Positions 1 to 14,077 of a stretch of DNA of 64,000 bases are shown here, in pieces; the stretch's first letter is position 1; every line of letters begins with the position of its first letter. Under the pieces are notes generated by a model, which did no database searches, was not told the DNA's origin, and saw only the letters and a program-made list of their open reading frames with translations. This DNA is from a virus (Duplodnaviria; Caudoviricetes). A program made the translations under genes and the position numbers. The DNA lies in the IMG/VR virus record IMGVR_UViG_3300002839_000006, positions 17,703-81,702 of that record. One strand, given 5' to 3'.

Positions 1-268
1 TATGTCCGCTTGCCACTAAATCTATTTTAGGAATCCATTGGTTGTCGGTAAATGCACTTAAATATGAAGTATTTAAATCCAAATAATACAAAGCAGCCTG
101 TTTTGTCATCCAATTAATTCCGCTGGGCATTGGAACTTTTTGATATAACCCACTGCCCTGAGCATCTGCAAAACTCACCCACTGGTCAGAAGTCAAATTA
201 CTCCATCCAATCTGAGCCTGACCAAACGAGCATAAAAACAGTAGGGTTATTAATAGTAACTTTCTCAT
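1..268 (-). CDS. Signal-peptide-bearing protein, partial (runs off the left edge)
   Basis: Manual translation from ATG 268, open to position 1: MRKLLLITLLFLCSFGQAQIGWSNLTSDQWVSFADAQGSGLYQKVPMPSGINW... It starts 2 nt after the stop of the upstream gene; Sec-type signal ending AQA|Q. Confidence 0.8.
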   Translation of the reverse strand, partial: MRKLLLITLLFLCSFGQAQIGWSNLTSDQWVSFADAQGSGLYQKVPMPSGINWMTKQAALYYLDLNTSYLSAFTDNQWIPKIDLVASGH

Positions 269-270
269 AG

Positions 271-924
271 TTAAAAGAATAAAAATCTGTGATGTTTCTT
301 AATTCCGTTTAGTTTTTCCAAATATTCAACCCTCGCTGTAAGTTCCTGAATAGCTTTAATCTCTAATCCGTGTAAGGAATAAAGATTTATAGCATCTTTT
401 TTTTCACCCATTAAAATATACCTAGAAACACTTGCTGGAATTTCATCAATGATAAATCCTAATGTTTCATTGATAGTTGGTTTAGTCTTGTAGTTAAAAT
501 CCCTTAGTTGAAATTTACTTAACTCAAATGTTGCCGAACCTGTCCAGTCTTTATGAACATTTTTTAAACTTCTGAGTGAGTTAAAACCACCCCCTGCTGC
601 TGTAATTGAACCACCTAAAACTCCGTTTCCTGTTATGTTAAAATTAGCAGGTTGGGCAGAGGTTCCATTGTTTATGAATTTATTGATACCACCTATTAAG
701 ATTACATCGGAATTTAATGTACAGGTGTTTAGGGTTTTGGTTGAAGCTAGTCCTAGAAATGCAGAATACACATTACCGTTATTGGCATTGGTTATAATCT
801 TTCCTCTTGGAATTGTCTCTCCGAAAGTAGTCACACTGTCAGCAACCCTTACATTACCCGAAGGCGTGACTTGTGCAAATGAAATTGTGCTAATAAATAG
901 CAATAATATTAAAATCTTTTTCAT
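271..924 (-). CDS. Tail fibre/spike-like protein with N-terminal signal peptide and C-terminal Peptidase_S74-like intramolecular chaperone
   Basis: Signal MKKILILLLFISTISFA|Q. C-terminus SLRSLKN...GFIIDEIP...INLYSLHGLEIKAIQELTARVEYLE resembles the S74 autocleaving chaperone ending in a coiled coil. Confidence 0.7.
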   Translation of the reverse strand: MKKILILLLFISTISFAQVTPSGNVRVADSVTTFGETIPRGKIITNANNGNVYSAFLGLASTKTLNTCTLNSDVILIGGINKFINNGTSAQPANFNITGNGVLGGSITAAGGGFNSLRSLKNVHKDWTGSATFELSKFQLRDFNYKTKPTINETLGFIIDEIPASVSRYILMGEKKDAINLYSLHGLEIKAIQELTARVEYLEKLNGIKKHHRFLFF

Positions 925-928
925 GTTA

Positions 929-2887
929 TTAATATAAGAATGAGATAGTTACGACATCATAAGCATATACAGGAAGTGTAACTTGAACTGTTGCGCCACT
1001 TACAGTATAATTTGCAGGGTCAAGTGTTGAACCATTTAGGGAAACCCTTACGCCTGTTGCATCTTTTGGTGTATTTGAAAGCGTGTTTACTTGACCTGTT
1101 GAACCACTTGCAGCTTCTGCAAATTTCTGAGTTTTGAGATGGTCGTTGTAAAGTGTAGGTTTGTTTTGAATAAAAGTACCTCCCGAAGTTGCATTCCAAT
1201 CAATATAGGCTGCCGCTAAACCTGTTGATGTTCCAGTTAATGCACCTGTAAATCCAGTTGATGTAACAGAAGTTAGTCCTGCAATAGTTGTTGCTGTTGC
1301 ACCTAATGCAATATTAGTTGAACCAATAGTAAGACTTGAATTAGTTAACCTTGCATTTGCTAAAGTTCCTGTCCATCCAACTGTTATACTTGCTGCATTT
1401 AATAGCGAAGTTGAAGCCGAACCTCCTAAAGTTAAAGTTACATTTGTATCGTCTGTTTTTGTCAAGGCATTACCTGTAATTACTGCGGCAGGTATTCTCT
1501 CCCAAATAGTACCATTGTAACTTGCGTCATCACCTACATTAAAGGCTATTCCACCTGCACCAAAATTTGTAGTACCTGCTGTTGTACACCTATAAAACCA
1601 TCCTGCCGTTCCTGTGCCATTTGCAAGTGTCGGAGTGTTCGTATTTGCATTCCATGTTCCTTTATAAACTTGACTTGTTGCTACTGCCGCCCATGTTGCA
1701 ACCCCTGAACCGTTTGTTTTTAGAAAGTATCCATCTACTGCACCTGTTGTTATAGTGATTACAGGTGTACTAATTGAGCTCGAAGCATTAAACTGACTAG
1801 CTGCAACGGTTGATGAAAAGGTGGCAACAACTCCATAAAGCATACCAGTCAAAGCCTGACCACTACCTGCTGATAGGGGGAGATAACCACCACTTACAGC
1901 AGGAGCAGCACCAATATATGATAAAACCGCAGTAGAATTAAACCTATAAACAGTTCCATCGGCAGCTTCCCCTAATATTCCATCTGTTAATCCTGATGCT
2001 TGAAGTCCTGTGAAATTACCCGCTACACCCTGCCATTGACCTGAATTATCAGCAACTCCGTGCAAAGCAAGAGCCCCAATACTATTATATGAAATAGTCT
2101 TAGCTGCTGAACCATTAAAAGTACCACCACTTGCATCACCTGAACCTGAATTGTTAAAGGTTAGGGAATTAGGAGTGTTAAAAGCAGGTAAAGCAGCACT
2201 AGTCCAAGCTGAACCATCTGAAGTTAATACGTTGCCACTTGTCGAGGGTGTTACGGCTGCAATAAAATCAGTTGTTGCCGAATTTGCAGCACTACCAAAA
2301 GTTCTGTAATTTAGTTTTGTGGCTAAAGATGAAGTTAGTCTGTCCCTACGAACATACCCATCAGTGCCTATACTGTCAGATTTATCCTTTTTTGATAATG
2401 CTTTAAAGTTGGTGTAAAACCCATAACCCGCTGTACTATCATTGCTTAGCTTGTAGCTACCTGCTGCTTGTTTATTATTAAATGTAGTCCAGTCGGCAGC
2501 ACTTAAAGCACCTCTATTAGAAGCACTTGCAGTAGGTACTTGTAGGGTAATTACAGGTGTTGTAGTTCCCGTTGCTACTGTACTACTTAAATCTGTTCCT
2601 GTTGTACCTAAGGTTAAAGCAGCTACAGAAGTTACCGTACCACCACCATTAACTAAATCTATATACCCTGCTGCCAAAGCTGTAGTTATGGTATAAGAAG
2701 AAGTCAATGCAGTATTCACCCTCCATATTTTCTTAGTTGCTACATCATAAATTTCATTCCCTACCGAGAAGTTCTGATTTAGTGCAGTAGTAGCATTGGC
2801 TATTCTTACTGAGATAATAGGTGAAGTTTGAGCGTAAATGTTAACACTCAGTAAAACTGCTATTAAAAAACTTAGTATTTTTTTCAT
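929..2887 (-). CDS. Thr/Ala/Gly-rich fibre-like protein with signal peptide
   Basis: Signal MKKILSFLIAVLLSVNIYA|Q. Contains the YKGTWNANTNTPTL...GWFY...VGD...NG..W module typical of phage tail/baseplate fibres and a C-terminal small beta domain (VSLNG...YTVSG..V). Confidence 0.65.
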   Translation of the reverse strand: MKKILSFLIAVLLSVNIYAQTSPIISVRIANATTALNQNFSVGNEIYDVATKKIWRVNTALTSSYTITTALAAGYIDLVNGGGTVTSVAALTLGTTGTDLSSTVATGTTTPVITLQVPTASASNRGALSAADWTTFNNKQAAGSYKLSNDSTAGYGFYTNFKALSKKDKSDSIGTDGYVRRDRLTSSLATKLNYRTFGSAANSATTDFIAAVTPSTSGNVLTSDGSAWTSAALPAFNTPNSLTFNNSGSGDASGGTFNGSAAKTISYNSIGALALHGVADNSGQWQGVAGNFTGLQASGLTDGILGEAADGTVYRFNSTAVLSYIGAAPAVSGGYLPLSAGSGQALTGMLYGVVATFSSTVAASQFNASSSISTPVITITTGAVDGYFLKTNGSGVATWAAVATSQVYKGTWNANTNTPTLANGTGTAGWFYRCTTAGTTNFGAGGIAFNVGDDASYNGTIWERIPAAVITGNALTKTDDTNVTLTLGGSASTSLLNAASITVGWTGTLANARLTNSSLTIGSTNIALGATATTIAGLTSVTSTGFTGALTGTSTGLAAAYIDWNATSGGTFIQNKPTLYNDHLKTQKFAEAASGSTGQVNTLSNTPKDATGVRVSLNGSTLDPANYTVSGATVQVTLPVYAYDVVTISFLY

Positions 2888-2888
2888 C

Positions 2889-4292
2889 TTAGTTCTGTAT
2901 TTTTATTTTATCGTAAGTCCTTGTATCTGCCTGTAAGGTAATTGAGGTAGTGCCTACCCCTGACCAAATATCACTCGAAATTGAATTGCCATTGTAAAAA
3001 ACGTTGGAAATATCTGTGAGTGGAAATGGGATCATAAAAGTAGTCACCCCAGAAGTTGTGACTGAGATTTCATACATTATTGAATAGGCTGTGGTTTTTA
3101 CTCTCCCCCATTGAACTCCATTTGAGATAATCCAGTCACCTACCCCATAAGTTAGTCCTGATTGAGTTCCTGCCGTGTTTACAATATAGTACCAACCTTT
3201 AGTTGTGTCTGCGTTTGGGATAGAGGGTGTATTTGTAGCTGCATTGTAAACTCCTTGATATTTGACTGCACCTATTAAAGCTGCATTCATTTGAGATAGA
3301 GGTACTTTACCATTTACGAGTGAAGCCACACCGTTTAAAGCACCCCTGTCAGAAGTATTTATTTTGCTTAATGCCTTGAAATTGGTGTAAAAGCCTTTGT
3401 CTAACACACTATCGTTAGCTGCCTTATATAAAGTGCTATCTTTGCTTCCATCTGCCTTTAGAAACTCTGTATTTAAACCGTTTTCTGCTATGAAAGTTTT
3501 CCCTCTCACATTTCCTTTTAAATAGGTGTCAGTAGTCAAATCTGTACCTATGGTTGTCGTATTCGAACCATTACCTACTCCATATGTCCCTATCACTATT
3601 TCATTCTCAATACTATCAAGTTTGGCTCTTGTGAATGCCCCTATATAAATACAGTTGTTTAAATTTCTTGCCCCAGTAATTCCATCTGTTATATGACTCC
3701 CTGCTTCTTGTCCTACTGATGTATTATAATTCCCATTCTGGTTATGATACAGAGCTGAGTATCCATTGGCAGTATTACCATTGGCATACTTAGCTGATCT
3801 TAATGCATATGCTCCAGAGCCTGTATTATTTACTCCATATATAGTTATTGAATCCAGTGCAGCTGAACCAAGTGTTGTATTGTAGTTCAAGTCACTCTTC
3901 AAACCCATTGCCCCATTGAAGAAATATCCCTGCCCTGAATTAATAGAACCTGCAATGTTTATATTAGCATTCTGAGGTACTGTTTTTTGATTCCATATAT
4001 AGAAGGTTGAACCTGTTGCTGGAGCTTTACCTGCTACCATTGCATCAACCTGTGCTTTCTTATATACAAGTAACATCACTGAATCAATATTGTGTTTCAA
4101 CTTATCCATTGAAGCAAGATCAGTCCATTTATAGGTGACTCCTTTATATATCCATACAACTGAATCTAATGTGTTATAGCCAAATGAAGGGTTACTTATA
4201 GTCTTAAAAGTTGACCCTACTGGAGGATTCTTTTGTGAAAAAGAAAACGTTACTACCAATGATAGTAATAACGTTAAAAGTATTTTCTTCAT
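2889..4292 (-). CDS. Fibre-like protein with signal peptide and trimeric-adhesin-head-like repeats
   Basis: Signal MKKILLTLLLSLVVTFSFS|Q. NTxxGxxAL repeats (NTTLGSAAL, NTGSGAYAL, NTANGYSAL, NTSVGQEA), a YQGVYNAATNTP...VGDW module and a C-terminal VFYNG beta domain. Confidence 0.65.
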   Translation of the reverse strand: MKKILLTLLLSLVVTFSFSQKNPPVGSTFKTISNPSFGYNTLDSVVWIYKGVTYKWTDLASMDKLKHNIDSVMLLVYKKAQVDAMVAGKAPATGSTFYIWNQKTVPQNANINIAGSINSGQGYFFNGAMGLKSDLNYNTTLGSAALDSITIYGVNNTGSGAYALRSAKYANGNTANGYSALYHNQNGNYNTSVGQEAGSHITDGITGARNLNNCIYIGAFTRAKLDSIENEIVIGTYGVGNGSNTTTIGTDLTTDTYLKGNVRGKTFIAENGLNTEFLKADGSKDSTLYKAANDSVLDKGFYTNFKALSKINTSDRGALNGVASLVNGKVPLSQMNAALIGAVKYQGVYNAATNTPSIPNADTTKGWYYIVNTAGTQSGLTYGVGDWIISNGVQWGRVKTTAYSIMYEISVTTSGVTTFMIPFPLTDISNVFYNGNSISSDIWSGVGTTSITLQADTRTYDKIKIQN

Positions 4293-4305
4293 ATATTAGT
4301 ATAGT

Positions 4306-4431
4306 TTAGTCTATTGTATTTCTTGTTTCAACCTTAGTCCACCCATCAGGCAAATCTTCGTATCTCAATGGATGCTTTAATTCCCATCCAATCCAAAGCC
4401 AACTTATTGCGAATATTATTAGTATTATCAT
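4306..4431 (-). CDS. Small single-pass membrane protein (41 aa)
   Basis: Manual translation MIILIIFAISWLWIGWELKHPLRYEDLPDGWTKVETRNTID*. The ATG directly abuts the upstream stop at 4432-4434. Confidence 0.55.
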   Translation of the reverse strand: MIILIIFAISWLWIGWELKHPLRYEDLPDGWTKVETRNTID

Positions 4432-6411
4432 TTAATAAGTTATTATTACCCCATTATGAAACAGGGGTGAACCATTGTGAAATACAGGACTAGCAAATGG
4501 ATGCTGATCAACCATTAGTACTACTGATGTATAAGGTTGCAAGGTCACAGATATGGCGTATTTAGTTCCTTTCACATCAATCATTGGACGACTTAATGTT
4601 ACTGTTTTTGCTGTTGTAGTGGCATTATATTCAAATTGCAAATCGTCTGTCATAGTAATTGCTTGAGGTGATTTGTGGGAATTGGCATCCTGACCTGAAT
4701 AGGCCTGCCATTGTGTAAGTGTGTAATGATATAGGGGATTACTCCACCCATTAGGCTGAAGATAAAACGTCTGATTATCATCTATTGGTCTTGCGTAATA
4801 ATTATTATCAAACGTACCCATCGTTGGAAGTGTCGCCTGTAAAGTTATTAAATTTACAACATACTGATTTGCATCTTTAGACAAAAATATATTGTTCGTA
4901 AGTAAACAATTTGTAATAGCATCATTAGTAGCATCATCCTGTGTGTAAAATTGTATCTTATTATTGTAAACAGTGTTACTAGTAATTGTGATATAACTTG
5001 CATTATGAAGCAAAATACCATTACCCGCACAATTAGCCATTGTGTTGTCCGTTATTTCTACATTTTTAGCATTGTCATCCATATAAATACCATTGGCAGG
5101 AGTGTAACTTGTACTATTGGTTCCTGCAAAAGCTCCAATCCCGTTTAATACAATATTTCCTGTTATTACGTTACCATAAGATAAACCGCCTGTATATATA
5201 CCGCCTCCATCTTGAAGAACTGTACAAAAAGTATCTATAAAGTTATTTTTTATAAGTGCGGAATCCCCTGAAAAATATATTCCATTATAGCCTGTTTTTA
5301 TGATTCTATTATATTCTATAATTAACCCCTTGTATGAATTTGCTTTCAAAATACCCACGCGACCGCTTACTCCAGTTTCACCCATTCCTGGATAAATTCC
5401 TGTATTTTGAATAGTATTATTTCTTATTGTAGAATATTCAACATCATAAATCAGATTAACGCCAGTACTATTTGAGTTTGATATGATACAATTTTCAATA
5501 GTACTATAAGGAGTACCTAATTGAATCCCTTCTATTCCACTAAAATTGACTGTGCAATTTTTTAAAATAATATCCCTCAACCCACCATATTCAGTAAGAA
5601 TAGAATATCTATTGGCGCCCGTAAACGAAAGTCCATCGATGGTAATAAACGCAGCATGAATAGTCGCCAAAACATCCTGAGAAGCTACCTGTATATTTGT
5701 TGGAATGCTTGTACTATAAACTCTTATCTTTTTAGTAGAAGGGTTGTAATACCATTCATTTTGCTGATCAAGAGTTCGGGTATCGTTTTGAATAAAAAAA
5801 CCAAAACCATCTGTTGGTGTAAAAGTACTTACGTATGGACTGTATGTTAATGTGTTTCCTGATTGAGATGTAACAAAAGATCTATCTAAAATCCATTGCA
5901 CAGTACGTACAACTACCTCTGCCCCTGTCCAGTCAGTCGTACCTGTTAAACTACTGCTTGTAATTGAGGTTTTTCCAGAATGAGATTGATACGTTAAATA
6001 TCCTCCATTAGCTGCATCAGCATTAGGATAACGCCCCATTGGAGTATTTACTCCATTTATAACAACCATATTGCAAGTTGAAAGCGTTGATACAGCTGAA
6101 GTGCTTTCCCAAATATTGCCACCTAAATTCGTCCAGGCAGTAACAGTAGTAAAACCTGTAATAATTGGATTTTCCCCCGTACCATAAGCTCCATAAATTA
6201 TTGGATGTCCTGATGTCCCTGAGTTATGGGGAATTATTGTACCGATAAATGTTTCACCACGATTAAATAAAATCTGATCATCAGGGGCAAAAGTGGCTGC
6301 GTTGACTGCTGCTATGGTAGAATAATCGCCACCACTCGCAGCGACATGGTAAACAGCTGTCTGGCCTATCAAGCTAAAGAAAATAAATAATATTGTTAGT
6401 ATCTTTTTCAT
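4432..6411 (-). CDS. Right-handed parallel beta-helix protein (pectin-lyase-like, possible depolymerase) with signal peptide
   Basis: Signal MKKILTILFIFFSLIG|Q. Repeated I.NN.I...G..GI motifs; YHV...GG...T...A...F.PDD.ILF.RG.TF start typical of Bacteroidota beta-helix proteins. Confidence 0.75.
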   Translation of the reverse strand: MKKILTILFIFFSLIGQTAVYHVAASGGDYSTIAAVNAATFAPDDQILFNRGETFIGTIIPHNSGTSGHPIIYGAYGTGENPIITGFTTVTAWTNLGGNIWESTSAVSTLSTCNMVVINGVNTPMGRYPNADAANGGYLTYQSHSGKTSITSSSLTGTTDWTGAEVVVRTVQWILDRSFVTSQSGNTLTYSPYVSTFTPTDGFGFFIQNDTRTLDQQNEWYYNPSTKKIRVYSTSIPTNIQVASQDVLATIHAAFITIDGLSFTGANRYSILTEYGGLRDIILKNCTVNFSGIEGIQLGTPYSTIENCIISNSNSTGVNLIYDVEYSTIRNNTIQNTGIYPGMGETGVSGRVGILKANSYKGLIIEYNRIIKTGYNGIYFSGDSALIKNNFIDTFCTVLQDGGGIYTGGLSYGNVITGNIVLNGIGAFAGTNSTSYTPANGIYMDDNAKNVEITDNTMANCAGNGILLHNASYITITSNTVYNNKIQFYTQDDATNDAITNCLLTNNIFLSKDANQYVVNLITLQATLPTMGTFDNNYYARPIDDNQTFYLQPNGWSNPLYHYTLTQWQAYSGQDANSHKSPQAITMTDDLQFEYNATTTAKTVTLSRPMIDVKGTKYAISVTLQPYTSVVLMVDQHPFASPVFHNGSPLFHNGVIITY

Positions 6412-6412
6412 G

Positions 6413-7600
6413 TTAATAATTTAGTATTTTTTTTACGGACACCTGATCAAAACATATTCCATTAGTATCATTAGTGACATCTACATTAGCCTGAAAATAA
6501 GGTGATATATGCGTACCGCTAGATTGAAAAATCACCGTATATAATGTCCATGATGAAGATGAAATTGTAAAAGGTGAGAATTGTGTCGAAGAGGCTTCAA
6601 ACAACGCCCCTCCAGTGGCTTTAATGTTTTTAGCATAAAAGGACAAAACGTACCAATCACCACTTGTGGTGGGTACCATCTGCCATATTTGTCCACTAAG
6701 ACCAGCAGCATTAGTTATACTTTGGCTTGAAGTTCCAGCGTATGGAGTGGCTGTGTTTTCAGAAAGATTACCGGCTATATAAGTCCAACTAGGAGCATTT
6801 CCTGCCACATACGTCCCTTCCACACTGCCATTAACTACTAATTCAGGGCCATAGAAGTAACCTGATGCAGAAACACTATCAGCAGCCCAAACAGGGCTTT
6901 TCCAGTAAGAATTAGATTTTACCCAAAGTCTTCCAGAAGTACTATCAATATATATATTTCCTGTAGCTGGTGGAGAGGCAAGAACACTTAAAGAATCAGC
7001 AAAACTACTACCATAACCTGCATGATCCAGTACATACTTAGGAGTGGCGTAACCACTACCATCAGTCTTGTTGCTATCGGCCTTTAGTGGAACCAAGCCT
7101 GATAGCTCAGTACCACTTGCAAGCGTGACCTCAATCAAGCCTACTCTGTGATTTGTAGCATATTTAGTACTGTCTTTTCTATTTAATTTTGTAAGTAAAC
7201 TATCAGATAGATTTGTTATAGTTGATTGTGCCTGATTATGTGCTGTCGGAGTTCTTGAATCGCTTAGCCTGCTATCATTCCCTACAGCAGCGGTTGAAGA
7301 AGTTGTTCCAAATCCAGGAAAAGAAACCTTTGAATTAATGCGATTTGACAAAGATATTGTATCTATTGCATTTCCTGTAGCTAAATTATAAGCTACTCCT
7401 GCTTTATAGAAAAGAAAAACACCCCCAACTATACCCGTAGAATCAATTTGTGGGCCATGTACCCCTATCTGAAAAGAGCCAATTACTTTAACAGGTCCCA
7501 TAAATAATCTATACCCTTGTTGTTTAGAACTATTGGGAAATGTAATTTGGGATATACCAAACAGTGGGAATAATAAAAATAATAGAATTAGCTTTTTCAT
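6413..7600 (-). CDS. Signal-peptide protein with C-terminal carbohydrate-binding-like jelly-roll domain
   Basis: Signal MKKLILLFLLFPLFGIS|Q. C-terminal ELVVNGSVEG...WYVLSFYAK...WTLYTVIF...CFDQVSVK resembles CBM_4_9-type domains. Confidence 0.55.
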   Translation of the reverse strand: MKKLILLFLLFPLFGISQITFPNSSKQQGYRLFMGPVKVIGSFQIGVHGPQIDSTGIVGGVFLFYKAGVAYNLATGNAIDTISLSNRINSKVSFPGFGTTSSTAAVGNDSRLSDSRTPTAHNQAQSTITNLSDSLLTKLNRKDSTKYATNHRVGLIEVTLASGTELSGLVPLKADSNKTDGSGYATPKYVLDHAGYGSSFADSLSVLASPPATGNIYIDSTSGRLWVKSNSYWKSPVWAADSVSASGYFYGPELVVNGSVEGTYVAGNAPSWTYIAGNLSENTATPYAGTSSQSITNAAGLSGQIWQMVPTTSGDWYVLSFYAKNIKATGGALFEASSTQFSPFTISSSSWTLYTVIFQSSGTHISPYFQANVDVTNDTNGICFDQVSVKKILNY

Positions 7601-7604
7601 ATCA

Positions 7605-8066
7605 CTAAAGTGTTACATTGATTTTTGCATTAACAATTTCTTCAGTTGTGCCTATAATTACGTCATAAACACTTCCGTTTAAGACATAAGCTACTGATCC
7701 TACGTTCTGTTTTACTCCCCCAAGGAATACCACAATATTACTAGGTTCTGTATTGATAGGTGGTGTAAAGTCGTTACCTGAAATAGTTGTATCACTATTA
7801 GCAACAAGGGTAGCAGTAGCTGTACATATTCCTCCTCCACTACCTGCCCCAGCACCTAACCAACTTGTATTCCAATAATTCACAAATGCTGCAACTGATG
7901 CAAACCCTGTAAGTGTACTATCTAAACAATTTCTATAATCAGTCTCTATGAATGGTGTACTCTCATCAGCGAATCTTATTCTTATGGTATTCCCACAAGT
8001 TGTCAATATAGGGTTAGCTCTGTTATATAGTATCCCATCTATCTTTCCTGTATCGAATGTGTACAT
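7605..8066 (-). CDS. Hypothetical, probably structural protein
   Basis: 153-aa ORF between the fibre cluster and the head module; beta-rich C-terminus; no signal peptide. Confidence 0.55.
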   Translation of the reverse strand: MYTFDTGKIDGILYNRANPILTTCGNTIRIRFADESTPFIETDYRNCLDSTLTGFASVAAFVNYWNTSWLGAGAGSGGGICTATATLVANSDTTISGNDFTPPINTEPSNIVVFLGGVKQNVGSVAYVLNGSVYDVIIGTTEEIVNAKINVTL

Positions 8067-8097
8067 GTTGGCCTATGTGTTGTTGTATTATCGGAAT

Positions 8098-8895
8098 TTA
8101 TTTGTTATTCACAGTATGACCTCTAACTTCTGATCTTTTAGAATCTTCATGTTGAGAAATATCTTCTGAAGTTATACCACCATATTCATTTCCATTTCTT
8201 TTAGATTTTATTCTGTATATAAAATCACCATCTTTAGTCTCAGTAACTTTTGTGACAGTACCCTTTAGATCAACCCCATTTGATTTAAATGATACTACAT
8301 TATCAATTTCATATTCTGCCTTCTTAGCTTTCTTCTCAACAGGTTTCTCTTCTTTCTTTTTCTCACTGCTTGTTCCAGCTGTTGGACCTTCTGTAGGTTC
8401 TGTCACTTTACTTTTATCTTTATTATCCCAAGTTGACATTTTATCTTTCTCACCTTCTGGTGCCTTGAATGTGTCCTGTGCTTCCTCTGACTTCCTACGC
8501 TGTAGTTCTTTATGTGCTGCCTCTCTTACTGCAGGATCAGTAGATACCTTAGTAGCATTCATTAGGGCTGCCTCGGATGCCGTCTTAGCAGCTGTCCCCA
8601 GATCTTGTGGTTGTGCTGTAGCTTTACCCTGTTCAGCTCTCTTATCAAGTGCTGCTTTAGCTTCTGGGTTCTCAGGTTTACCTGGTGCATCGCCACTTTT
8701 TACTGGCACCCATCCTGTAGCTTCTTTTCTCATTTTAACACCACTCCACTCCCTTATCTCACCCATCTGAGCTAATTTGCCTTTTATAATGTCCTCTTTC
8801 ATTTCATTGAATGTAGGTGCAAGATTTTTCTTAATTTGATCTTCTTGTTGTTGTTGTCCTTTTCTTATTTCGTCTTGGATATTCATTTTAATCAA
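8098..8895 (-). CDS. Head-associated family protein 1 (shared N-terminal module, SH3-like C-terminus)
   Basis: EDIIKGKLAQMGEIREWSGVKMRKEATGWVPVK is a divergent copy of the module found in four other proteins. Overlaps the portal stop. Confidence 0.65.
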   Translation of the reverse strand: MIKMNIQDEIRKGQQQQEDQIKKNLAPTFNEMKEDIIKGKLAQMGEIREWSGVKMRKEATGWVPVKSGDAPGKPENPEAKAALDKRAEQGKATAQPQDLGTAAKTASEAALMNATKVSTDPAVREAAHKELQRRKSEEAQDTFKAPEGEKDKMSTWDNKDKSKVTEPTEGPTAGTSSEKKKEEKPVEKKAKKAEYEIDNVVSFKSNGVDLKGTVTKVTETKDGDFIYRIKSKRNGNEYGGITSEDISQHEDSKRSEVRGHTVNNK

Positions 8896-10585
8896 TATTT
8901 ACGTTTTCTTCGATATATTTTAGACACTGCATAGTCAATGGATCGTCTTTACTCATCAGTGACTTCTTGAATGCCTGTGCTGGTGCACCTGATTGATCTT
9001 CCTGGTTGAACTTATCAAATGGATTTTGAGCACCTGCTTCTGGTTCACCTGTCATCTCATCTACTGCCTCGTTACTTCCCTGCCCACCCATCATCTTCAT
9101 TTGTTGTGCCTGTAGATAAACTGGATTCAATATAGTGTCAGTCTTTTCATTGAAAGGTCTTCCCATCTCAGCTTCAAATGCTGCTTCAAATGGCATCTGA
9201 CCTGAAGCTATCTTCTTAGCTATAAGGTCAACCAACTCCATCTCGTCCTGTGTATCAATACCAGTAAACACCAATTCATAGTCTGAATCTATCTCTGATA
9301 CCAACCACTTGGTCAATACCTTTTCCCAGAATAGGAGTATTGGCTTCAACCCTTTCTTTTTACTATGCTGTATTCTTTCTTTCTGTCCTGCCTGACCAAA
9401 TAACTGTGCTGACTTCTGGAACTGATAACCTAACTCTGAAGGATCAATAGTGAATACTGAGCATAACATAATAATAAGAAATTCCATCCATTGTTGGAAC
9501 TCCATATCCTTATTTGTTCCCTGTAAATCTATCCATTCTAAGTCTATCCCACTGAAGATCGGTAATTTATGAGAATTTCCGACACCAGCTATCATCTGTC
9601 TCCATGTCTGTCTAAAATCATTCAGAACATCCATATTGACACCACCATCCTTAATATTTATGAATCCCTTAGGGTTACTACCCTGCTTAAAGAAGTTACC
9701 GTTGTATTGCATTCCCCACAACGACCAAGTGATAATATCCAGCAGCACCTCTACCTCAGATGTACCATATCCATTCTTATCAATAGATGTGGCTTTATTG
9801 CGTTGAGCATACATCAGCTCCCAAGGATAGTAAACTATCTCCTGTTTGGTTACTGGGTTGACCATCACGTTGCTCTGGTATACCTGAGCGTACCGTGGAT
9901 ACTGGCCAAACTGTTCTGTATACTTCTGCTTAGTCTGCTCTCTGAAACGTGGATCTATCGTCTCTAATATCCTTATAGTTGAAGCATCTATTGCTGTGTG
10001 TCCTATTAATTCAAATCTTCTGTTACGTTCACATTCAGCTGCCAACTGGTCATAGGTCATTGAATCTCTTAATGCTTTGCGGGTGAAATCTGCTAAGTCA
10101 TCAGTAGTATCCCATTTACCTTTTAGTCCACCATTCTCTAAATAGTTGACTATATATTCTATTTTCTTCTTGTCTTCCCTGTTTTCTTTTTGTTTCCCAG
10201 TATCAAAAATAGATCTCTTCTTACGTATAGTATATCCCTCTGATTTATTGTCATTGGTGAAACGTAGGAAGTTCTGTACCTGGAATATTCTTGTATTTAT
10301 GATAGACCCTACAATAGGTGTATCACCTACCTTCTTCAATACATCAAATGATACTCGCTTCCGTTGTTGCTTATACCCATTAGTTGAATAGTAAGCTTCA
10401 AAAGGATCGAATACGAATGACTTGATGTCCTTCTTCTTTTTATTCTTTTCTAACTCCTGTAGATAATTTTGAGCCTTGTAGATGTCATTAACATCAGTTG
10501 ACATTAACTGCTTCTCCAGAAGGAGACTTTTCTCTATCTGGAGCTTAGCAGTTTGTTCGTCTATTTGTTCTATTTCTCTATTCAT
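8888..10585 (-). CDS. Phage portal protein (SPO1/Herelleviridae-like)
   Basis: Motifs IINTR..QV..F, RDSMTYDQ...E, IDASTIR, YG.SEVE, YNGNFFKQGS.PKG, F...WRQ...G..NS.K.P are typical of large-myovirus portals. Confidence 0.9.
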   Translation of the reverse strand: MNREIEQIDEQTAKLQIEKSLLLEKQLMSTDVNDIYKAQNYLQELEKNKKKKDIKSFVFDPFEAYYSTNGYKQQRKRVSFDVLKKVGDTPIVGSIINTRIFQVQNFLRFTNDNKSEGYTIRKKRSIFDTGKQKENREDKKKIEYIVNYLENGGLKGKWDTTDDLADFTRKALRDSMTYDQLAAECERNRRFELIGHTAIDASTIRILETIDPRFREQTKQKYTEQFGQYPRYAQVYQSNVMVNPVTKQEIVYYPWELMYAQRNKATSIDKNGYGTSEVEVLLDIITWSLWGMQYNGNFFKQGSNPKGFINIKDGGVNMDVLNDFRQTWRQMIAGVGNSHKLPIFSGIDLEWIDLQGTNKDMEFQQWMEFLIIMLCSVFTIDPSELGYQFQKSAQLFGQAGQKERIQHSKKKGLKPILLFWEKVLTKWLVSEIDSDYELVFTGIDTQDEMELVDLIAKKIASGQMPFEAAFEAEMGRPFNEKTDTILNPVYLQAQQMKMMGGQGSNEAVDEMTGEPEAGAQNPFDKFNQEDQSGAPAQAFKKSLMSKDDPLTMQCLKYIEENVNID

Positions 10586-10642
10586 AATCTATCGATATCA
10601 CTGACCATTCCTTCCTCGAAACTCGAAATTAGTGATATTCTT

Positions 10643-11194
10643 TTACGATGCTAATACAGTTACTGTGACTACATAACTCTTAGCTGCACCATTTGTTCCA
10701 GTCAATGCATAAGTTACTGGACTTGTGAAGTTGTTTGCAGTAGAAGCTGATGTTTGAGTGTCATTACCTATTTTAACAGTTGTGTTGGCTGTCTTAGTAA
10801 ACGTTGCTATCAATGATGCTGGATTAGTTCCAAAAGGTACACTCAATGTAATAGTGCCTGCAGCTTGATCAATTACAATTGCTGTTGCTGAAGGTAATGT
10901 GAATGTCAATAACTGGATAGCAAGGTTATCTACAACTGCAGCTGCTCTGTCTGTGTAGGAAGTCAGTGTCAGGTTTAATGCTACTGCTTTTGCTTTGAAC
11001 AGAGTTACTGTTGATTCCAGATAATCATGGAATAATCCTATTGCTTGTCCTGCTGAAAGTAGTCCTGGAGTTACTACTCCTGCTACTTCTGATTTAATCT
11101 CATTAATAAATAGGCGATCATTTGTACTGATGCCATTTGTCAAATAGGAAACTTTGAAGCTCTTGTCTATTGGACTAAATACGTATTGTTTCAT
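10643..11194 (-). CDS. Protein with C-terminal DUF5018/cadherin-like Ig domain (possible capsid decoration)
   Basis: LLTFTL...IDQAAGTITLSVPFGT..ASLIATFT...NNFTSPVTYAL..NG..KSYVVTVTV. Confidence 0.65.
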   Translation of the reverse strand: MKQYVFSPIDKSFKVSYLTNGISTNDRLFINEIKSEVAGVVTPGLLSAGQAIGLFHDYLESTVTLFKAKAVALNLTLTSYTDRAAAVVDNLAIQLLTFTLPSATAIVIDQAAGTITLSVPFGTNPASLIATFTKTANTTVKIGNDTQTSASTANNFTSPVTYALTGTNGAAKSYVVTVTVLAS

Positions 11195-11235
11195 TGTTTA
11201 TATGTCTTTTAAATTATTGGTTGCGGAATTATTCT

Positions 11236-12270
11236 TTACTCGTCTGAAATACCTTTATCAAAGCCCTCTTTCTCTAAATCTTCCCAACTTTTAAATATAA
11301 CAGGAGCACCTCTATTTGCTCTAAAATTTGCTCCGTCTTCATCCACACTTCTTACTTCATACTCTTTACCATCTTTATCAACAATAAAATCTCCAGCTTC
11401 AACATCGTCTAATTTATTGGTTGGATTTGTTTCTTTTTTATTTTCTACAGCATATAAATCATCATCGTCTCCAGAAGGAACTCTTCTCTCATCTTTTTTA
11501 TCTTCTTTCTTAGTCCCAAACTTCTGCCCTACTCTCCCCAACTTCATATTCTCAGGAGTGTTCATGTAGGTTCCGCCTCTTGACTTCTGGATCTCTCCCT
11601 CCTTTGGTTCATCCCAAAGTATCTGAGCAGCCCTTACAAACATAAAGTCTTCTTGTAGATGACCCCCTGCATTAGCTGAGATAACTTTAATAGGTGAGAA
11701 AGATTTGATTTCATCAGCTACTGCCTTCATGATCTTATCTTTGTTCATAGCTTTATTATTATAGCCATGTTTTGCGTTAAAATTCTTCACATTAGCGCTA
11801 TGCTCTTCAGATAATGCATCAAGCTCTTTTCTAAGAAGAACTTTCTTAGATTCTTCTGGTTCTGCTTTGATCTTATCTAAAACAACTCTTCTTTTTGCTT
11901 CGTGTTCTGTATTCAGCTTCTCGCCTTCACTAGCGTACTTGTCTCTATCACTTACTGCATCAAGTTCATCTTTATCTTTAGTCTTATTAGCTTTTACTTC
12001 AACCCAATCTTTATGGGAATTTCCTGTCTCAGACACTTTTCGCCAGATCACTCCCGAAGGCGAAGTGTGAATAGTTCCAATAGGGGATTTCTTGCCCTTT
12101 TCGATATCATTATCCAAACTCTTTGTGATCTCGTTCATGTTCTCCTCAGCAAATAGCTTTACTTGTTCGTAGGTGAATGCTTCTACCTCATTGAGTTTGA
12201 TCTTTCTGTCAAGATCGTCTTTATGGATTGTTTCCATTAAATTGTCTGTTATTGAATTAACAAAATACAT
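11236..12270 (-). CDS. Head-associated family protein 2
   Basis: DIEKGKKSPIGTIHTSPSGVIWRKVSETGNSHKDWVEVK; second internal motif EIQKSRGGTYMNTPENMKLGRVGQKFG; SH3-like C-terminus. Confidence 0.7.
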   Translation of the reverse strand: MYFVNSITDNLMETIHKDDLDRKIKLNEVEAFTYEQVKLFAEENMNEITKSLDNDIEKGKKSPIGTIHTSPSGVIWRKVSETGNSHKDWVEVKANKTKDKDELDAVSDRDKYASEGEKLNTEHEAKRRVVLDKIKAEPEESKKVLLRKELDALSEEHSANVKNFNAKHGYNNKAMNKDKIMKAVADEIKSFSPIKVISANAGGHLQEDFMFVRAAQILWDEPKEGEIQKSRGGTYMNTPENMKLGRVGQKFGTKKEDKKDERRVPSGDDDDLYAVENKKETNPTNKLDDVEAGDFIVDKDGKEYEVRSVDEDGANFRANRGAPVIFKSWEDLEKEGFDKGISDE

Positions 12271-12320
12271 TTTGAGTTTATAAAATTAAATAAATTAATT
12301 GTAAAAATAAAATTTATCAT

Positions 12321-12358
12321 AAAATAAAGAAAGGGAACCAATCCTTGACTGATTCCCC
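12321..12358 (-). terminator. Rho-independent terminator after the tmRNA coding piece
   Basis: Minus strand GGGAATCAGT-CAAGG-ATTGGTTCCC followed by TTTCTTTATTTT. Confidence 0.8.
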
Positions 12359-12683
12359 ATTCCCGAATTTAAGCTACTGCTTTCAACTCTTGAAACATTG
12401 GTATTGTTTTGCCTTTTATGGCCTAGCAACTTCTTTTTGTTATCCTCTCATATGCAATCGAAAATTCTTTATGCCCCTAGTATTAATTAATATTTGAGGG
12501 AAACAATCGTTAGTTAATCTTCCCTCGATCATGGCAACTGATCTCGTGGAGCATCTGGGATTCAAACCCAGGTCTTGCATTTAAGCCAATAATCTCACTG
12601 CTAGTATTTTTAAATAACTTTAAGCAGATCCATCTTGGAAGCCTTTGCTTTCTCACTGTGTTGTGTGATACCTACTTAATGTG
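12333..12683 (-). ncRNA. ssrA: Circularly permuted (two-piece) tmRNA
   Basis: In transcript order the acceptor piece ends ...TGCAA-GAC-CTGGG TTTGAAT CCCAG-ATGCTCC-A (12579-12547). A 69-nt intervening segment follows, then the coding piece starting GGGGCAT (12477), which pairs with ATGCTCC including the G3:U70 Ala determinant. Tag ORF 12413-12369 reads GKTIPMFQELKAVA*. Outer limits are approximate. Confidence 0.85.
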
Positions 12684-12756
12684 TATAAGCAATAGGACTC
12701 GAACCTATGATCTCTACATCCCAAATGTAGCGGGTTACCAACTCCCCTATGCCTAT
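12684..12756 (-). tRNA. tRNA-Pro (TGG)
   Basis: Acceptor ATAGGCA/TGCTTAT, D arm GGGG-AGTTGGTA-ACCC, anticodon arm CTACA-TTTGGGA-TGTAG, T arm ATAGG-TTCGAGT-CCTAT; CCA not encoded. Confidence 0.9.
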
Positions 12757-12762
12757 ATTTGT

Positions 12763-12803
12763 AAATGGAGTAGCTGATTGCTATCGTTTGTTCTACTCCA
12801 TTT
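12763..12803. repeat. 11-bp perfect inverted repeat upstream of tRNA-Pro
   Basis: AAATGGAGTAG (12763-12773) / CTACTCCATTT (12793-12803), 19-nt loop. Confidence 0.75.
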
Positions 12804-12921
12804 ATTTTTGTTCATAAATCCTGTGAATTAATTGTTCTTATTTATAAAAGCTAAACACTTTAAGAAGGCATAAAATTAAATAAAATATCTTTCACTTTTA
12901 TATTTTATTTAAAATTTATCC

Positions 12922-12944
12922 TTATTTATAATAGTTTTAACTAA
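12922..12944. promoter_or_regulatory. 23-bp palindromic site, 51 bp from TAAAATT box at 12871 (upstream of tRNA-Pro/tmRNA)
   Basis: TTATTTATAA-TAG-TTTTAACTAA. Confidence 0.6.
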
Positions 12945-13974
12945 AGAATGGGTAGAAGCAGCCCTGTGACTTAGTTATTCCTCTTTCACCTACCCAAATG
13001 TCTATAATCCAAAAACCTGTATGTGCTGAAATTCTCTTTGCCCTCATCCACTTACTTTGTTTTTCTATACACCCTGCACCGTAGCAATGTATGTTCCGTT
13101 CAAACACATATACTGCCTTGTGAACATGACCTAATAGTAGTAGACTTGGCTTCTCCCCACCTGTAAAACTTTCAACCACCTTTTGTATCCGGTAAGATGT
13201 TGCGTAGGAGGAGCTATCCTCTCCATGCCATAATTTAATTATTGCTCTCCCACCCAGATTTATATCTCCTTCATCATGACCTAAAAAAGTAGCATTAGGT
13301 AACATCTCGCATATATCTTTTACGATCAATGCACCATTGGATTTTATAAACCATCTGTCGTGGTTGCCATCTATCATATAAATTTTACCATCCCACTTAC
13401 TGAAGATGTCTACTGCCTCTCTTCTTTGTTGGTCATAACCCAGTTGGTCTAACTCGTATATCTGACCAGGTCGATTTGACATACCCTCAGTTACATCTCC
13501 TGCATGGCATATGAAATCTACTTTCTCCTTCTTAAATTCTTCAAATGCTTGGAATAGTTCTTGTTTATTGAAATACTTGCTCCCTATATGTGTATCTGCA
13601 AGTAAACCTATCCTTATATGATCACCCTCAAAGTCTACCAGTGTAGCATTCTGCTTAGCTGTTATCCCTGTACCATTTGCTATTGACTGTAGCTCGGCAG
13701 GTGTATACATCTCTGATATCTTCTTCAGTAAAGGATGCTTGTCAAGACTAAATTGACTTTCTAACATCCCTGTTTCTACTTTCTCTTCTTGTTTCTCTCT
13801 TTTCTCTCTATCATCTGACCCATTACAACCTTGATAATATTGAATGAGTTTTCTTACTCCATTCAAAGTATCCCAAACATTAGGGTTCTCTTTAAATATA
13901 AGTTTTGCTACTCCATTCTTACTTAAATCTGGATAATCTTTTAAATATTTCTTAATTATGTCTGATTTACTCAT
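12937..13974 (-). CDS. Calcineurin-like metallophosphoesterase with N-terminal extension
   Basis: DTHIGS, GDVTEG, GNHD, HG and GHVHK motifs. Confidence 0.9.
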   Translation of the reverse strand: MSKSDIIKKYLKDYPDLSKNGVAKLIFKENPNVWDTLNGVRKLIQYYQGCNGSDDREKREKQEEKVETGMLESQFSLDKHPLLKKISEMYTPAELQSIANGTGITAKQNATLVDFEGDHIRIGLLADTHIGSKYFNKQELFQAFEEFKKEKVDFICHAGDVTEGMSNRPGQIYELDQLGYDQQRREAVDIFSKWDGKIYMIDGNHDRWFIKSNGALIVKDICEMLPNATFLGHDEGDINLGGRAIIKLWHGEDSSSYATSYRIQKVVESFTGGEKPSLLLLGHVHKAVYVFERNIHCYGAGCIEKQSKWMRAKRISAHTGFWIIDIWVGERGITKSQGCFYPFFS

Positions 13975-14077
13975 TACTTTTATTTAATAATCTATCGAAA
14001 TAAACATGTCTAACAGTGTTAAATCTATTATTGGTATATTTATATTGATATACTCTTAACCTTTGTTAGACCTCATT

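What the first reader, a model, noticed from the sequence alone, without database searches (positions are those of the whole stretch)
1..7600. Six fibre/spike-like proteins in one operon all carry cleavable Sec signal peptides
Seen: ORFs at 1-268, 271-924, 929-2887, 2889-4292, 4432-6411 and 6413-7600 all begin M(K/R)K-hydrophobic core-small residue|Q. Their bodies look like virion fibres (S74-type chaperone, WNA.TNTP module, beta-helix, CBM-like domain), and they sit in one operon next to the portal. Established: tailed-phage fibres normally fold and assemble in the cytoplasm and lack signal peptides. Inference: either these fibres are exported and added to virions in the periplasm or at lysis, or they are displayed on the infected cell (adhesion, receptor masking or superinfection exclusion). 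I see no obvious T9SS C-terminal domain or lipobox.
Basis: partly seen in the sequence, partly recalled or inferred. Interest (0 to 1): 0.78.

Follow-up and report, generated by a model that had tools for sequence, protein, structure and literature searches.

The report
Phage fibre genes carrying export signals
An uncultured phage of Bacteroidota puts its host's own secretion signal on six neighbouring tail-fibre-like and sugar-cutting proteins. These probably mature outside the cytoplasm where tailed-phage particles are built, a route I found described in no paper.

Summary
Six tightly packed minus-strand genes lie between the portal and the lysis cassette. Each starts with M(K/R)K, a hydrophobic core and a small residue followed by Gln, the Bacteroidota Sec/signal-peptidase-I "Q-rule" leader. 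Only two other ORFs of about 110 in the 81.7-kb contig have such a leader.

Relatives of all six keep a leader. For the N-terminal module of f2 and f3, 141 of 145 cluster representatives are leader-like and 140 have a Q-rule site. No T9SS sorting domain or lipobox is present. f4 and f6 are enriched in the periplasmic O-glycosylation motif.

f5 is not a fibre. Residues 76-635 are identical, apart from one Tyr/Phe change, to a bacterial T9SS-secreted beta-helix enzyme. The stretch of that gene that could be compared at DNA level is also identical, and it lies in an exopolysaccharide locus.

Similar runs of leader-bearing genes, most beside lysis genes, recur in unrelated uncultured phages. They also occur in cultured Cellulophaga phages phi18:3 and phiSM, whose records call these proteins virion components by mass spectrometry.

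Export is well supported. Whether the proteins join virions at lysis or act on the envelope is unresolved.

This scan has found the same phenomenon before on other DNA. I found no paper describing it.

The parts
1..268 (-). f1: 5' part of a 424-aa gene that runs off the window (contig 16696-17970). Leader MRKLLLITLLFLCSFGQAQ. It is the last leader-bearing gene before the lysis cassette.
   Evidence: A homologue in L212 (46% identity over residues 1-422) keeps a nearly identical leader and the same position before the holin and endolysin genes. No Pfam, PHROG or NCBIfam family.
271..924 (-). f2: 217 aa. Leader (A17|Q18), a conserved 'type A' N-domain of about 55 aa, and a C-terminal region resembling the ends of tail proteins (possible S74-type chaperone).
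   Evidence: PHROG tail families, E 5.6e-6. Seven of the nine database relatives keep a leader; one is truncated at the N-terminus and one has a different N-terminal region. In the AF2 model, residues 1-15 form a helix and residues 22-80 a compact domain with pLDDT 72-86. That domain resembles CBM5/12 weakly (Z 3.3-4.7). S74 assignment is weak.
929..2887 (-). f3: 652 aa. Leader (A19|Q20), type A N-domain, and fibre modules including the WNA.TNTP module.
   Evidence: (phrog_13892, E 2.2e-14). P0005, P0046 and P0051 share the leader and the mature N-terminus.
2889..4292 (-). f4: 467 aa. Leader (S19|Q20), a second conserved N-domain ('type B'), the WNA.TNTP module, and a small C-terminal domain shared with leader-bearing proteins of other phages.
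   Evidence: its N-terminus matches the leader-bearing L021 596-aa and L100 1919-aa proteins. The O-glycosylation motif occurs 7 times against 1.8 expected (z 4.1).
4432..6411 (-). f5: 659 aa. Leader, then a right-handed beta-helix enzyme. Residues 76-635 are identical, apart from one Tyr/Phe change, to a bacterial T9SS-secreted enzyme whose 5' end lies in an exopolysaccharide locus. The fibronectin repeats and T9SS sorting domain are replaced by a tail of about 25 aa.
   Evidence: 92% identity overall, with the core identical but for one residue. One search shows a sharp DNA junction at about nt 226, with about 150 of 150 nt identical after it. Searches show the neighbouring Poly_export, Wzz-kinase and Bac_transf genes. 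One search finds no sorting domain in f5.
6413..7600 (-). f6: 395 aa. Leader (S17|Q18), a fibre motif at residues 96-145, and a possible CBM_4_9-like C-terminal half.
   Evidence: (phrog_1197, E 2.6e-9). The O-glycosylation motif occurs 7 times against 1.3 expected (z 4.9). The partial homologue in L018 is a leader-bearing 398-aa protein inside a run of leader-bearing genes before lysis genes.
7605..8066 (-). Leaderless 153-aa protein directly upstream of the six. Candidate virion-side adaptor (inference only).
   Evidence: Its N-terminal half is conserved in portal relatives L003, L004, L007 and L008. Its C-terminal half matches the 113-aa gene that precedes the two leader-bearing genes of relative G001.
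8888..10585 (-). Portal protein. Context: start of the gene run that contains the six.
   Evidence: Pfam Phage_portal E 1.2e-20 and phrog_12 E 3.1e-34.

Best explanation
The six genes form an exported receptor-binding and depolymerase cassette.

Proposed route:
1. Each protein is made late, together with the portal operon.
2. It is taken across the inner membrane by the host Sec system.
3. Signal peptidase I cuts it so that Gln becomes the new N-terminus. By the Q-rule this Gln is expected to cyclise to pyroglutamate.
4. It folds, and the fibres trimerise, in the periplasm. f4 and f6 probably also receive the host's O-glycan there.
5. With no T9SS sorting domain and no lipobox, the proteins stay in the periplasm until the adjacent holin and endolysin open the envelope.
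6. They then meet the finished particles. The fibre-like members (f2, f3, f4, f6, perhaps f1) most likely dock onto the virion, possibly through the leaderless 153-aa protein encoded just upstream.
7. f5 is a copy of the host's own exopolysaccharide-locus enzyme and has no added N-terminal adaptor domain. It may act as a free depolymerase in the periplasm and after release.

Shown here: the leaders, their conservation, the motif enrichment, the host identity of f5's body, and the recurrent arrangement of leader-bearing genes, mostly beside lysis genes.
Inferred: actual export, processing and glycosylation, and above all attachment to virions.
For: Leaders are real and specific.
- They sit on the six genes and only two other ORFs of about 110. 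Genes are packed 1-4 nt apart.
- 22 of 27 leader-flagged large proteins in this and related phage loci have a [small]-Q site at positions 16-25, against 9 of 173 leaderless proteins.
- The Q-rule is specific to Sec/SPI substrates of Bacteroidota (PMC5837995, PMC10653852).

Leaders are conserved by property, not by sequence.
- A profile of the leader plus type A domain finds 576 cluster representatives. In nearly all of the top 145 the match starts at residue 1; 141 of the 145 are leader-like and 140 have a Q-rule site.
- Relatives of f1, f4, f5 and f6 also carry leaders.

Periplasmic signature.
- The motif D[ST][AILVMT] (PMC8550257, PMC12871550) is enriched in f4 (z 4.1), f6 (z 4.9), the 201-aa membrane protein of the lysis cassette (z 9.9) and a small leader-bearing ORF (z 4.7).
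- About 70 other proteins of the contig show 57 motifs against 55.9 expected.
- Leader-bearing proteins of other phage loci show 106 against 52.8 (z 7.6).

f5.
- Its body is identical to that of a protein with fibronectin repeats and Por_Secre_tail, which is necessarily a Sec substrate.
- The 5' end of that gene lies in a bacterial polysaccharide export locus, and is identical at DNA level after a sharp junction.

Recurrent cassette. G001, L019, L039, L100, L102, L212, L017 and L018 all have runs of leader-bearing genes next to lysis genes. L052 and L021 have such runs directly after the tail tip genes, with no lysis genes in the DNA held.

Virion association in cultured analogues.
- Cellulophaga phage phi18:3 gp085-087 and phiSM gp08 have Q-rule leaders and lie directly upstream of lysis genes.
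- Their records annotate them as structural or tail proteins 'based on experimental MS/MS proteomics analysis'.
Against: - No experiment bears on this phage.
- SignalP was not available.
- The cultured analogues share no detectable sequence similarity with f1-f6. MS detection in purified virions does not prove specific attachment.
- phiSM gp09, the leader-bearing 'pectate lyase', is not flagged as found by MS.
- Attachment at lysis would be unprecedented for tailed phages.
- Motif enrichment is absent in f1, f2, f3 and f5, and in the type A family as a whole (291 observed against 346.5 expected).
- In relative G001 a complete leaderless baseplate and fibre module exists, so the leader-bearing set may be dispensable for particle building in this lineage.
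- L039, L052 and L102 all carry type A proteins but share no leaderless protein in the DNA held, so no common virion partner is visible.
- One of 401 Bacteroidota genomes has two type A genes in a neighbourhood that does not look like a phage.
Confidence: 0.5

Rival explanations
1. The proteins are exported but never join virions. They act on the envelope of the infected (or lysogenic) cell, or as free proteins after lysis. Possible roles are masking or destroying the phage's own receptor (superinfection exclusion, or protecting progeny from debris), degrading exopolysaccharide, or adhesion in the manner of surface fibres.
For: - f5 has the body of the host's own polysaccharide-locus enzyme and no added N-terminal adaptor domain.
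- Relative G001 has a separate leaderless baseplate and fibre module, and its leader-bearing genes lie beside the lysis cassette, apart from it. In phi3:1 the baseplate genes checked also lack leaders.
- Bdellovibrio MAT fibres have the same layout: signal peptide, a conserved N-domain straight after it, a trimeric fibre with or without S74, and a variable tip. They work on a cell surface (PMC10769870).
- The fibre modules also occur in giant leader-bearing cellular proteins.
- Type A genes occur in a chromosomal neighbourhood that does not look like a phage.
- The type A domain weakly resembles carbohydrate-binding CBM5/12 folds.
- phiSM gp09 is not MS-flagged.
Against: - phi18:3 gp085-087 and phiSM gp08 are recorded as virion proteins by MS/MS.
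- In L052, L021 and L102 the leader-bearing genes follow the tail tip genes directly, and no other fibre-like gene is seen in the DNA held.
- With no T9SS domain or lipobox there is no known way to the cell surface.
- The pattern of a conserved N-domain with swapped C-terminal halves is the classic signature of virion-attached fibres.
Confidence: 0.33
2. The leaders are not used for export. The proteins stay in the cytoplasm and assemble on the tail in the ordinary way. The hydrophobic N-terminus would serve as a structural or membrane-tethering segment, or be removed by a phage protease.
For: - All known tailed-phage fibres assemble in the cytoplasm (established knowledge).
- The P. gingivalis prophage paper suggests that some predicted 'signal peptides' on capsid proteins are in fact prohead-protease substrates (PMC10367356).
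Against: - A structural helix has no reason to end in [small]-Q at a fixed distance in 140 of 145 relatives while its own sequence drifts freely.
- Periplasm-specific glycosylation motifs are enriched in f4 and f6.
- f5's body is that of a bacterial enzyme that folds after export.
Confidence: 0.12
3. Artefact: wrong start codons, or chance hydrophobic N-termini.
For: None beyond the absence of a proper predictor run. Ribosome-binding sites are weak in Bacteroidota, so starts cannot be confirmed that way.
Against: - Spacers of 1-4 nt place each ATG right after the previous stop codon.
- The next in-frame ATG in f3 is several hundred codons downstream (read from the translation).
- The leader is present in relatives from independent contigs.
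- There are six in a row, against two elsewhere in about 110 ORFs.
Confidence: 0.02

Closest known systems
Leader-bearing virion proteins of cultured Cellulophaga phages: phi18:3 gp085-gp087 (NC_021794) and phiSM gp08 / phi3:1 gp8-gp9 (KC821616, KC821630)
   Same: - Large proteins with Bacteroidota Q-rule leaders, encoded in a row directly upstream of the lysis cassette.
- In the myoviruses phiSM and phi3:1 the gene order matches this contig: portal, small structural protein, leader-bearing genes, lysis genes, prohead protease, capsid, sheath.
- The records list gp085-087 and phiSM gp08 as structural or tail proteins from MS/MS.
   Different: - No detectable sequence similarity to f1-f6.
- The portals belong to different Pfam families.
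- There are two or three such genes there, against six here.
- The record annotations shown do not mention the leaders, and I found no paper discussing them. The paper describing those phages could not be read here.
Bdellovibrio bacteriovorus MAT (mosaic adhesive trimer) fibres (PMC10769870)
   Same: Signal peptide, a conserved beta-rich N-domain directly after it, a phage-tail-fibre-like trimeric shaft, S74 and non-S74 subfamilies, and swappable C-terminal tips. This shows that such fibres can fold after export.
   Different: - They are encoded by a predatory bacterium, not a phage, and are displayed on its own surface.
- Their N-domain is about 130 aa, against about 55 aa here.
- Sequence relationship was not tested.
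Q-rule signal-peptide genes of unknown function in Porphyromonas gingivalis prophages (PMC10367356)
   Same: Phage-encoded proteins whose predicted leaders obey the Bacteroidetes Q-rule. The authors read this as adaptation to the host's general secretion system.
   Different: Those five genes are not described as fibre-like or as a cassette. The term 'tail fiber' does not occur in the paper.
Bacteroidota T9SS-secreted right-handed beta-helix enzymes encoded in polysaccharide loci (for example P0281 and the L166 gene)
   Same: f5 residues 76-635 are identical to P0281 apart from one Tyr/Phe change. About 150 nt of DNA after the 5' junction are identical to the 5' end of that gene in L204.
   Different: f5 has a phage-type leader and N-terminal cap. 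It lacks the fibronectin repeats and the Por_Secre_tail domain.
Small phage-encoded exported exclusion proteins such as T5 Llp and lambda Lom (from my own knowledge, not checked here)
   Same: Phage genes with signal peptides that lie beside receptor-binding genes and act at the envelope.
   Different: Those are single small lipoproteins or outer-membrane proteins, not sets of large fibre-like proteins.

Membership tests
Sec / signal peptidase I substrates of Bacteroidota (Q-rule) | Positively charged n-region, a hydrophobic h-region of 10-15 residues, and small residues at -1 and -3 | tested here: met
   All six meet this. f5 is the least canonical (LIG|QTA). A dedicated predictor such as SignalP was not available.
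Sec / signal peptidase I substrates of Bacteroidota (Q-rule) | Gln at +1 after the cleavage site | tested here: met
   Six of six here. 22 of 27 leader-flagged proteins in phage loci, against 9 of 173 controls. 140 of 145 type A family representatives.
Sec / signal peptidase I substrates of Bacteroidota (Q-rule) | Actual export, cleavage and pyroglutamate formation | not testable with these tools
   Needs N-terminal proteomics or cell fractionation.
Lipoproteins (signal peptidase II) | Lipobox with Cys at +1 | tested here: not met
   None of the six has [LVI][ASTVI][GAS]C. The Cys13 of f1 is preceded by Leu (read).
T9SS cargo | C-terminal sorting domain (Por_Secre_tail PF18962 / TIGR04183, or the type B domain TIGR04131) | tested here: not met
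   No hit at E <= 1 in NCBIfam or E <= 0.01 in Pfam for any of the six. f5's bacterial twin has the domain, and f5 has lost it.
Phage tail fibre / receptor-binding proteins | Sequence membership in tail-protein families | tested here: met
   PHROG tail families match f2, f3, f4 and f6. f5 is a beta-helix enzyme. f1 has no match.
Phage tail fibre / receptor-binding proteins | Presence in the virion | not testable with these tools
   Only by analogy: the records of phi18:3 gp085-087 and phiSM gp08 cite MS/MS.
Peptidase S74 intramolecular chaperone (f2) | Match to PF13884 with the catalytic Ser-Lys dyad | tested here: inconclusive
   f2 itself has no Pfam hit at E <= 1. Two relatives hit PF13884 at 0.017 and one hits MYRF_ICA at 0.0025. 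PHROG matches fall on the C-terminal ends of tail proteins. There is no PDB sequence match, and the AF2 model is poor in this region.
Substrates of the Bacteroidota general O-glycosylation system | Exported protein carrying D-(S/T)-(A/I/L/V/M/T) motifs above chance | tested here: inconclusive
   Met for f4 (7 against 1.8) and f6 (7 against 1.3). Not met for f1, f2, f3 and f5. The type A family as a whole is not enriched, while leader-bearing proteins of other phage loci are.
Bdellovibrio MAT-type exported fibres | Signal peptide followed directly by a conserved N-domain, then a trimeric fibre with swappable tips | tested here: met
   The architecture is met for f2, f3 and f4. Homology to the MAT N-domain was not tested, so this is likeness of design, not membership.

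The most novel reading that the evidence does not exclude
Many tailed phages of Bacteroidota build their host-recognition gear outside the cytoplasm. Fibres and spikes would be Sec-exported, trimmed to a pyroglutamate N-terminus, and partly given the host's O-glycan. They would be stored in the periplasm and snapped onto finished particles in the seconds between holin triggering and envelope rupture. If so, lysis and the last assembly step are coupled, and the virion carries host-type modifications.
Probability: 0.35. Interest if true: 0.88.

Novelty: new variant of a known kind. Interest (0 to 1): 0.7.

Why it matters
Textbook assembly of tailed phages takes place entirely in the cytoplasm. 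A widespread class of receptor-binding proteins that must pass through the periplasm would have several consequences:
- It would add a new assembly step.
- It would tie particle completion to lysis.
- It would let phages decorate their fibres with host glycans and protease-resistant N-termini.
- It would change how such proteins should be expressed for host-range work or depolymerase use: with the leader, in a Bacteroidota host.

It also gives a sequence rule for assigning uncultured phages to Bacteroidota hosts. The f5 case shows a phage swapping in the body of its host's own polysaccharide-locus enzyme. That is a very direct route to a matching depolymerase.

Cultured Cellulophaga phages with the same arrangement make the question testable now.

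Tried and rejected
- **Repeated 5' DNA box as a recombination signal:** rejected. Only ATGAAAAAG is shared.
- **Close cultured relatives:** none. Searches of the phage collection gave no megablast hit, no hit for f5, only Gordonia minor tail proteins through single modules for f3 and f6, and nothing for the type A domain even at E 10.
- **f3 in genomes of portal relatives:** none found. f4 gave no viral relative with a single-protein scan.
- **Bacterial genomes:** f3's C-terminal domain was not found in 185,579 species genomes.
- **T9SS sorting domains, lipoboxes:** not found.
- **Fold of the type A domain:** only weak matches (best Z 4.7), with CBM5/12 chitin-binding domains recurring. I treat this as a lead.
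- **Shared leaderless partner protein across phages with type A fibres:** none seen in the DNA held.
- **Promoter and terminator scan of 1-13000:** counts close to those of shuffled sequence.
- **Atlas search for f1:** nothing.
- **Literature:** eight full-text searches found no paper on leader-bearing tail fibres (among them). The paper describing the Cellulophaga phages is not held.
Contexts of database proteins, including P0281's own contig, could not be fetched directly.

Full report
**Setting.** The window is bases 17703-81702 of an 81.7-kb linear IMG/VR virus contig, estimated 74% complete. Nearly all genes are on the minus strand.

In the direction of transcription the order is as follows:
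- portal (8888-10585)
- a charged 265-aa protein
- a 153-aa protein
- the six genes of the finding
- one small convergent plus-strand ORF
- a lysis cassette with two membrane proteins (one matching a PHROG holin family), a 201-aa N-terminally anchored protein and an endolysin (phrog_7, E 1.6e-36)
- a minor head protein, a homing endonuclease and a Nudix-zincin protein
- prohead protease, scaffold and major capsid protein
- neck genes
- the start of a probable sheath gene at the contig end

The baseplate is not on the contig.

**Observation.** The six ORFs are real and packed 1-4 nt apart, apart from one 139-nt gap. The first is 424 aa once the contig is read beyond the window.

Each starts with M(K/R)K, then 11-15 hydrophobic residues, then a small residue and Gln. 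I scanned all ORFs of the contig for a basic start, a hydrophobic window and no acidic residue. Only these six, a 132-aa plus-strand ORF just downstream, and a 101-aa ORF at 29055-29360 have classic leaders. The other hits are membrane proteins, mostly in the lysis cassette. The nucleotide sequences of the six 5' ends share only ATGAAAAAG. The likeness is therefore one of properties, as expected of signal peptides, and not a repeated DNA element.

**Are they fibre-like?** PHROG tail families match f2, f3, f4 and f6. f5 is a right-handed beta-helix protein. The S74 chaperone call for f2 and the CBM call for f6 are weak. f1 is unannotated.

The central WNA.TNTP module of f3 and f4 is very common. 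f3 finds 4,550 proteins, and 111 of the top 119 other hits have ordinary leaderless fibre N-termini. The same modules also occur in giant leader-bearing cellular proteins of several phyla.

- Seven of the nine database relatives of f2 keep a leader, and so do the related L039 and L052 proteins. The leader sequence drifts while the next 55 or so residues are well conserved and the C-terminal halves are swapped.
- f3 and proteins of unrelated phage contigs share this 'type A' N-domain.
- A profile of leader plus domain, run against 1.84 billion cluster representatives, finds 576 proteins (263 at E <= 1e-10) of 71-1825 aa. In nearly all of the top 145 the match begins at residue 1. Of the 145, 141 are leader-like and 140 have a [small]-Q site, mostly at 18|19 or 19|20.
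- No Pfam or NCBIfam model covers the domain.
- f4 shares a second N-domain with leader-bearing proteins in L021, L100 and L212.
- f1's homologue in L212 has a nearly identical leader and the same place before the lysis genes.
- f6's partial homologue in L018 is leader-bearing.
- Phage copies of f5 in L163-L165 are leader-bearing and about 660 aa long.

Across the phage loci, 22 of 27 leader-flagged large proteins have the Q-rule site, against 9 of 173 leaderless ones. The Q-rule is described as specific to Sec/SPI substrates of Bacteroidota (PMC5837995, PMC10653852).

**Other marks of export.** No T9SS sorting domain or lipobox is present.

The Bacteroidota O-glycosylation motif D[ST][AILVMT] is added in the periplasm (PMC8550257, PMC12871550). 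Its counts are:
- f4: 7 against 1.8 expected
- f6: 7 against 1.3
- the 201-aa lysis-cassette membrane protein: 8 against 0.6
- the small ORF at 29055: 2 against 0.2
- f1, f2, f3 and f5: not enriched
- the remaining proteins of the contig: 57 against 55.9

Leaderless f3 homologues are depleted (2.6 per 1000 residues). The type A family sits at 5.0 per 1000. Leader-bearing proteins of other phage loci reach 9.6 per 1000 (z 7.6). This supports export for some members but not uniformly.

**f5 is a host enzyme body on a phage frame.** Its homologues form a very large Bacteroidota family, and many listed members carry Por_Secre_tail.

P0281 is a 1028-aa protein with fibronectin repeats and a T9SS domain. 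It is identical to f5 over residues 76-635 apart from one Tyr/Phe change. The first 75 residues are much less similar, and the C-termini differ completely.

The 5' end of the P0281 gene lies at the end of metagenome contig Ga0209538_1001040. It sits downstream of Poly_export, Wzz-type kinase and Bac_transf genes. A 68%-identical orthologue lies beside GT4 glycosyltransferases.

The DNA alignment shows a sharp junction at about nt 226 of f5. Identity is roughly 60% before it and about 150 of 150 nt after it.

So the phage's own beta-helix gene very recently recombined with the host's exopolysaccharide-locus enzyme. The phage gene kept its phage-type leader and N-terminal cap. It also kept a short phage-specific tail in place of the fibronectin repeats and the sorting domain. 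The bacterial enzyme must cross the inner membrane to reach the T9SS. This fits a body that folds outside the cytoplasm. f5 has no added N-terminal adaptor domain.

**The arrangement recurs.** In a scan of viral contigs with the f3 family, the fibre gene had a leader in 6 of 79 loci, and there the leader-bearing genes cluster.
- L052 has a siphovirus-type tail module followed by three leader-bearing genes.
- L021 has TMP, Dit and a Tal-like protein, followed by leader-bearing genes, one with strong tail-fibre PHROG matches.
- L039 and L100 are temperate, with integrases.
- L102 has five leader-bearing genes between the tail tip genes and the lysis genes.
- L017, L018 and L212 show the same pattern.

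Among relatives by portal:
- G001 has two leader-bearing genes directly before its holin and endolysin, and a separate leaderless baseplate and fibre module.
- G003 has leaderless fibres before its lysis genes.

In G001, therefore, the leader-bearing set lies beside the lysis cassette and apart from the baseplate. G000's own baseplate is missing from the contig, so I infer the same for it.

**Cultured analogues.** The lead came from earlier notes of this scan, and I checked it.
- Cellulophaga phage phi18:3 gp085, gp086 and gp087 (547, 785 and 559 aa) have Q-rule leaders. They lie directly upstream of the lysis genes. The record annotates them as virion structural, structural and tail protein 'based on experimental MS/MS proteomics analysis'.
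- The myoviruses phiSM and phi3:1 have the same order as this contig: portal, gp7, gp8 (leader; phiSM gp08 is structural by MS/MS), gp9 (leader, 'pectate lyase', not MS-flagged), lysis genes, protease, capsid, sheath and baseplate. The baseplate genes checked have no leaders.

None of these proteins is detectably similar in sequence to f1-f6.

**Closest design elsewhere.** In Bdellovibrio MAT fibres a conserved N-domain follows the signal peptide directly. They have S74 and non-S74 forms and swappable tips, and they sit on the predator's surface (PMC10769870).

The nearest published remark on phages is five unknown-function Q-rule genes in P. gingivalis prophages (PMC10367356). I found no paper on leader-bearing tail fibres.

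**Reading.**
- Export is well supported (about 0.85).
- The fate after export is open. The MS/MS annotations, the position after the tail tip genes in L052, L021 and L102, and the conserved-N/variable-C pattern favour attachment to particles once the envelope opens.
- Other evidence favours an envelope or free-enzyme role for at least some members. This includes f5's design, the separate baseplate fibres of G001, the lack of a shared virion partner, the MAT parallel, and a pair of type A genes in a chromosomal neighbourhood that does not look like a phage.
- A mixed cassette is my best guess.

This scan has reported the same phenomenon on other DNA several times.

Noticed in passing
L002:16291-16689 (+), about 1 kb beyond the window start: A 132-aa plus-strand ORF convergent with f1. 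It has a classic Q-rule leader (MKKIILITALVLVAMSLSAQ|V) and matches no family. It looks like a moron between the fibre cassette and the lysis genes.
   Followed up: partly
L002:14546-15151 (-): A 201-aa lysis-cassette protein with an N-terminal membrane anchor. It carries 8 copies of the O-glycosylation motif, mostly DTI, against 0.6 expected (z 9.9). It may be a glycosylated spanin-like protein. A homologue sits in the lysis cassette of L212.
   Followed up: partly
window 29055-29360 (-): A 101-aa ORF among replication genes with a Q-rule leader (MRKVSILLVLLAMSLISLAQ|V), a Gln/Pro-rich start and 2 glycosylation motifs against 0.2 expected.
   Followed up: no
L092 (IMGVR_UViG_3300037156_000269, 175-kb contig, GC 51%): Several adjacent large fibre-like proteins carry leaders ending in AMA|AG or FA|IG, with no Gln at +1. 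Leader-bearing fibre clusters may therefore not be limited to Bacteroidota phages.
   Followed up: no
L105, L107, L112, L113, L124, L131, L133 (genome contigs): Giant proteins of 1,700-3,600 aa in MAGs of candidate phyla (Patescibacteria and others) carry the same TKTDDTN and WNA.TNTP fibre modules. Several have leader or anchor N-termini. This suggests module exchange between phage fibres and cell-surface fibrils.
   Followed up: no
L156 (G317:C34), genes at 14769-15230 and 13206-14495 (-): The only one of 401 Bacteroidota genomes with true type A domain genes has two in tandem. They lie beside SusC/SusD-like and ECF sigma-like genes (judged from ORF sizes and N-termini only), with no phage genes within 10 kb.
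   Followed up: partly
window 7605-8066 and L136:11559-11900: The 153-aa protein is a mosaic. Its N-terminal half follows the phage backbone. Its C-terminal half is shared with the 113-aa gene that precedes the leader-bearing genes of relative G001.
   Followed up: partly
L002:12187-12942 (-) and window 45700-46464 (-): Two ORFs with similar N-termini that look like GIY-YIG homing endonucleases (judged by eye). One interrupts the head module.
   Followed up: no
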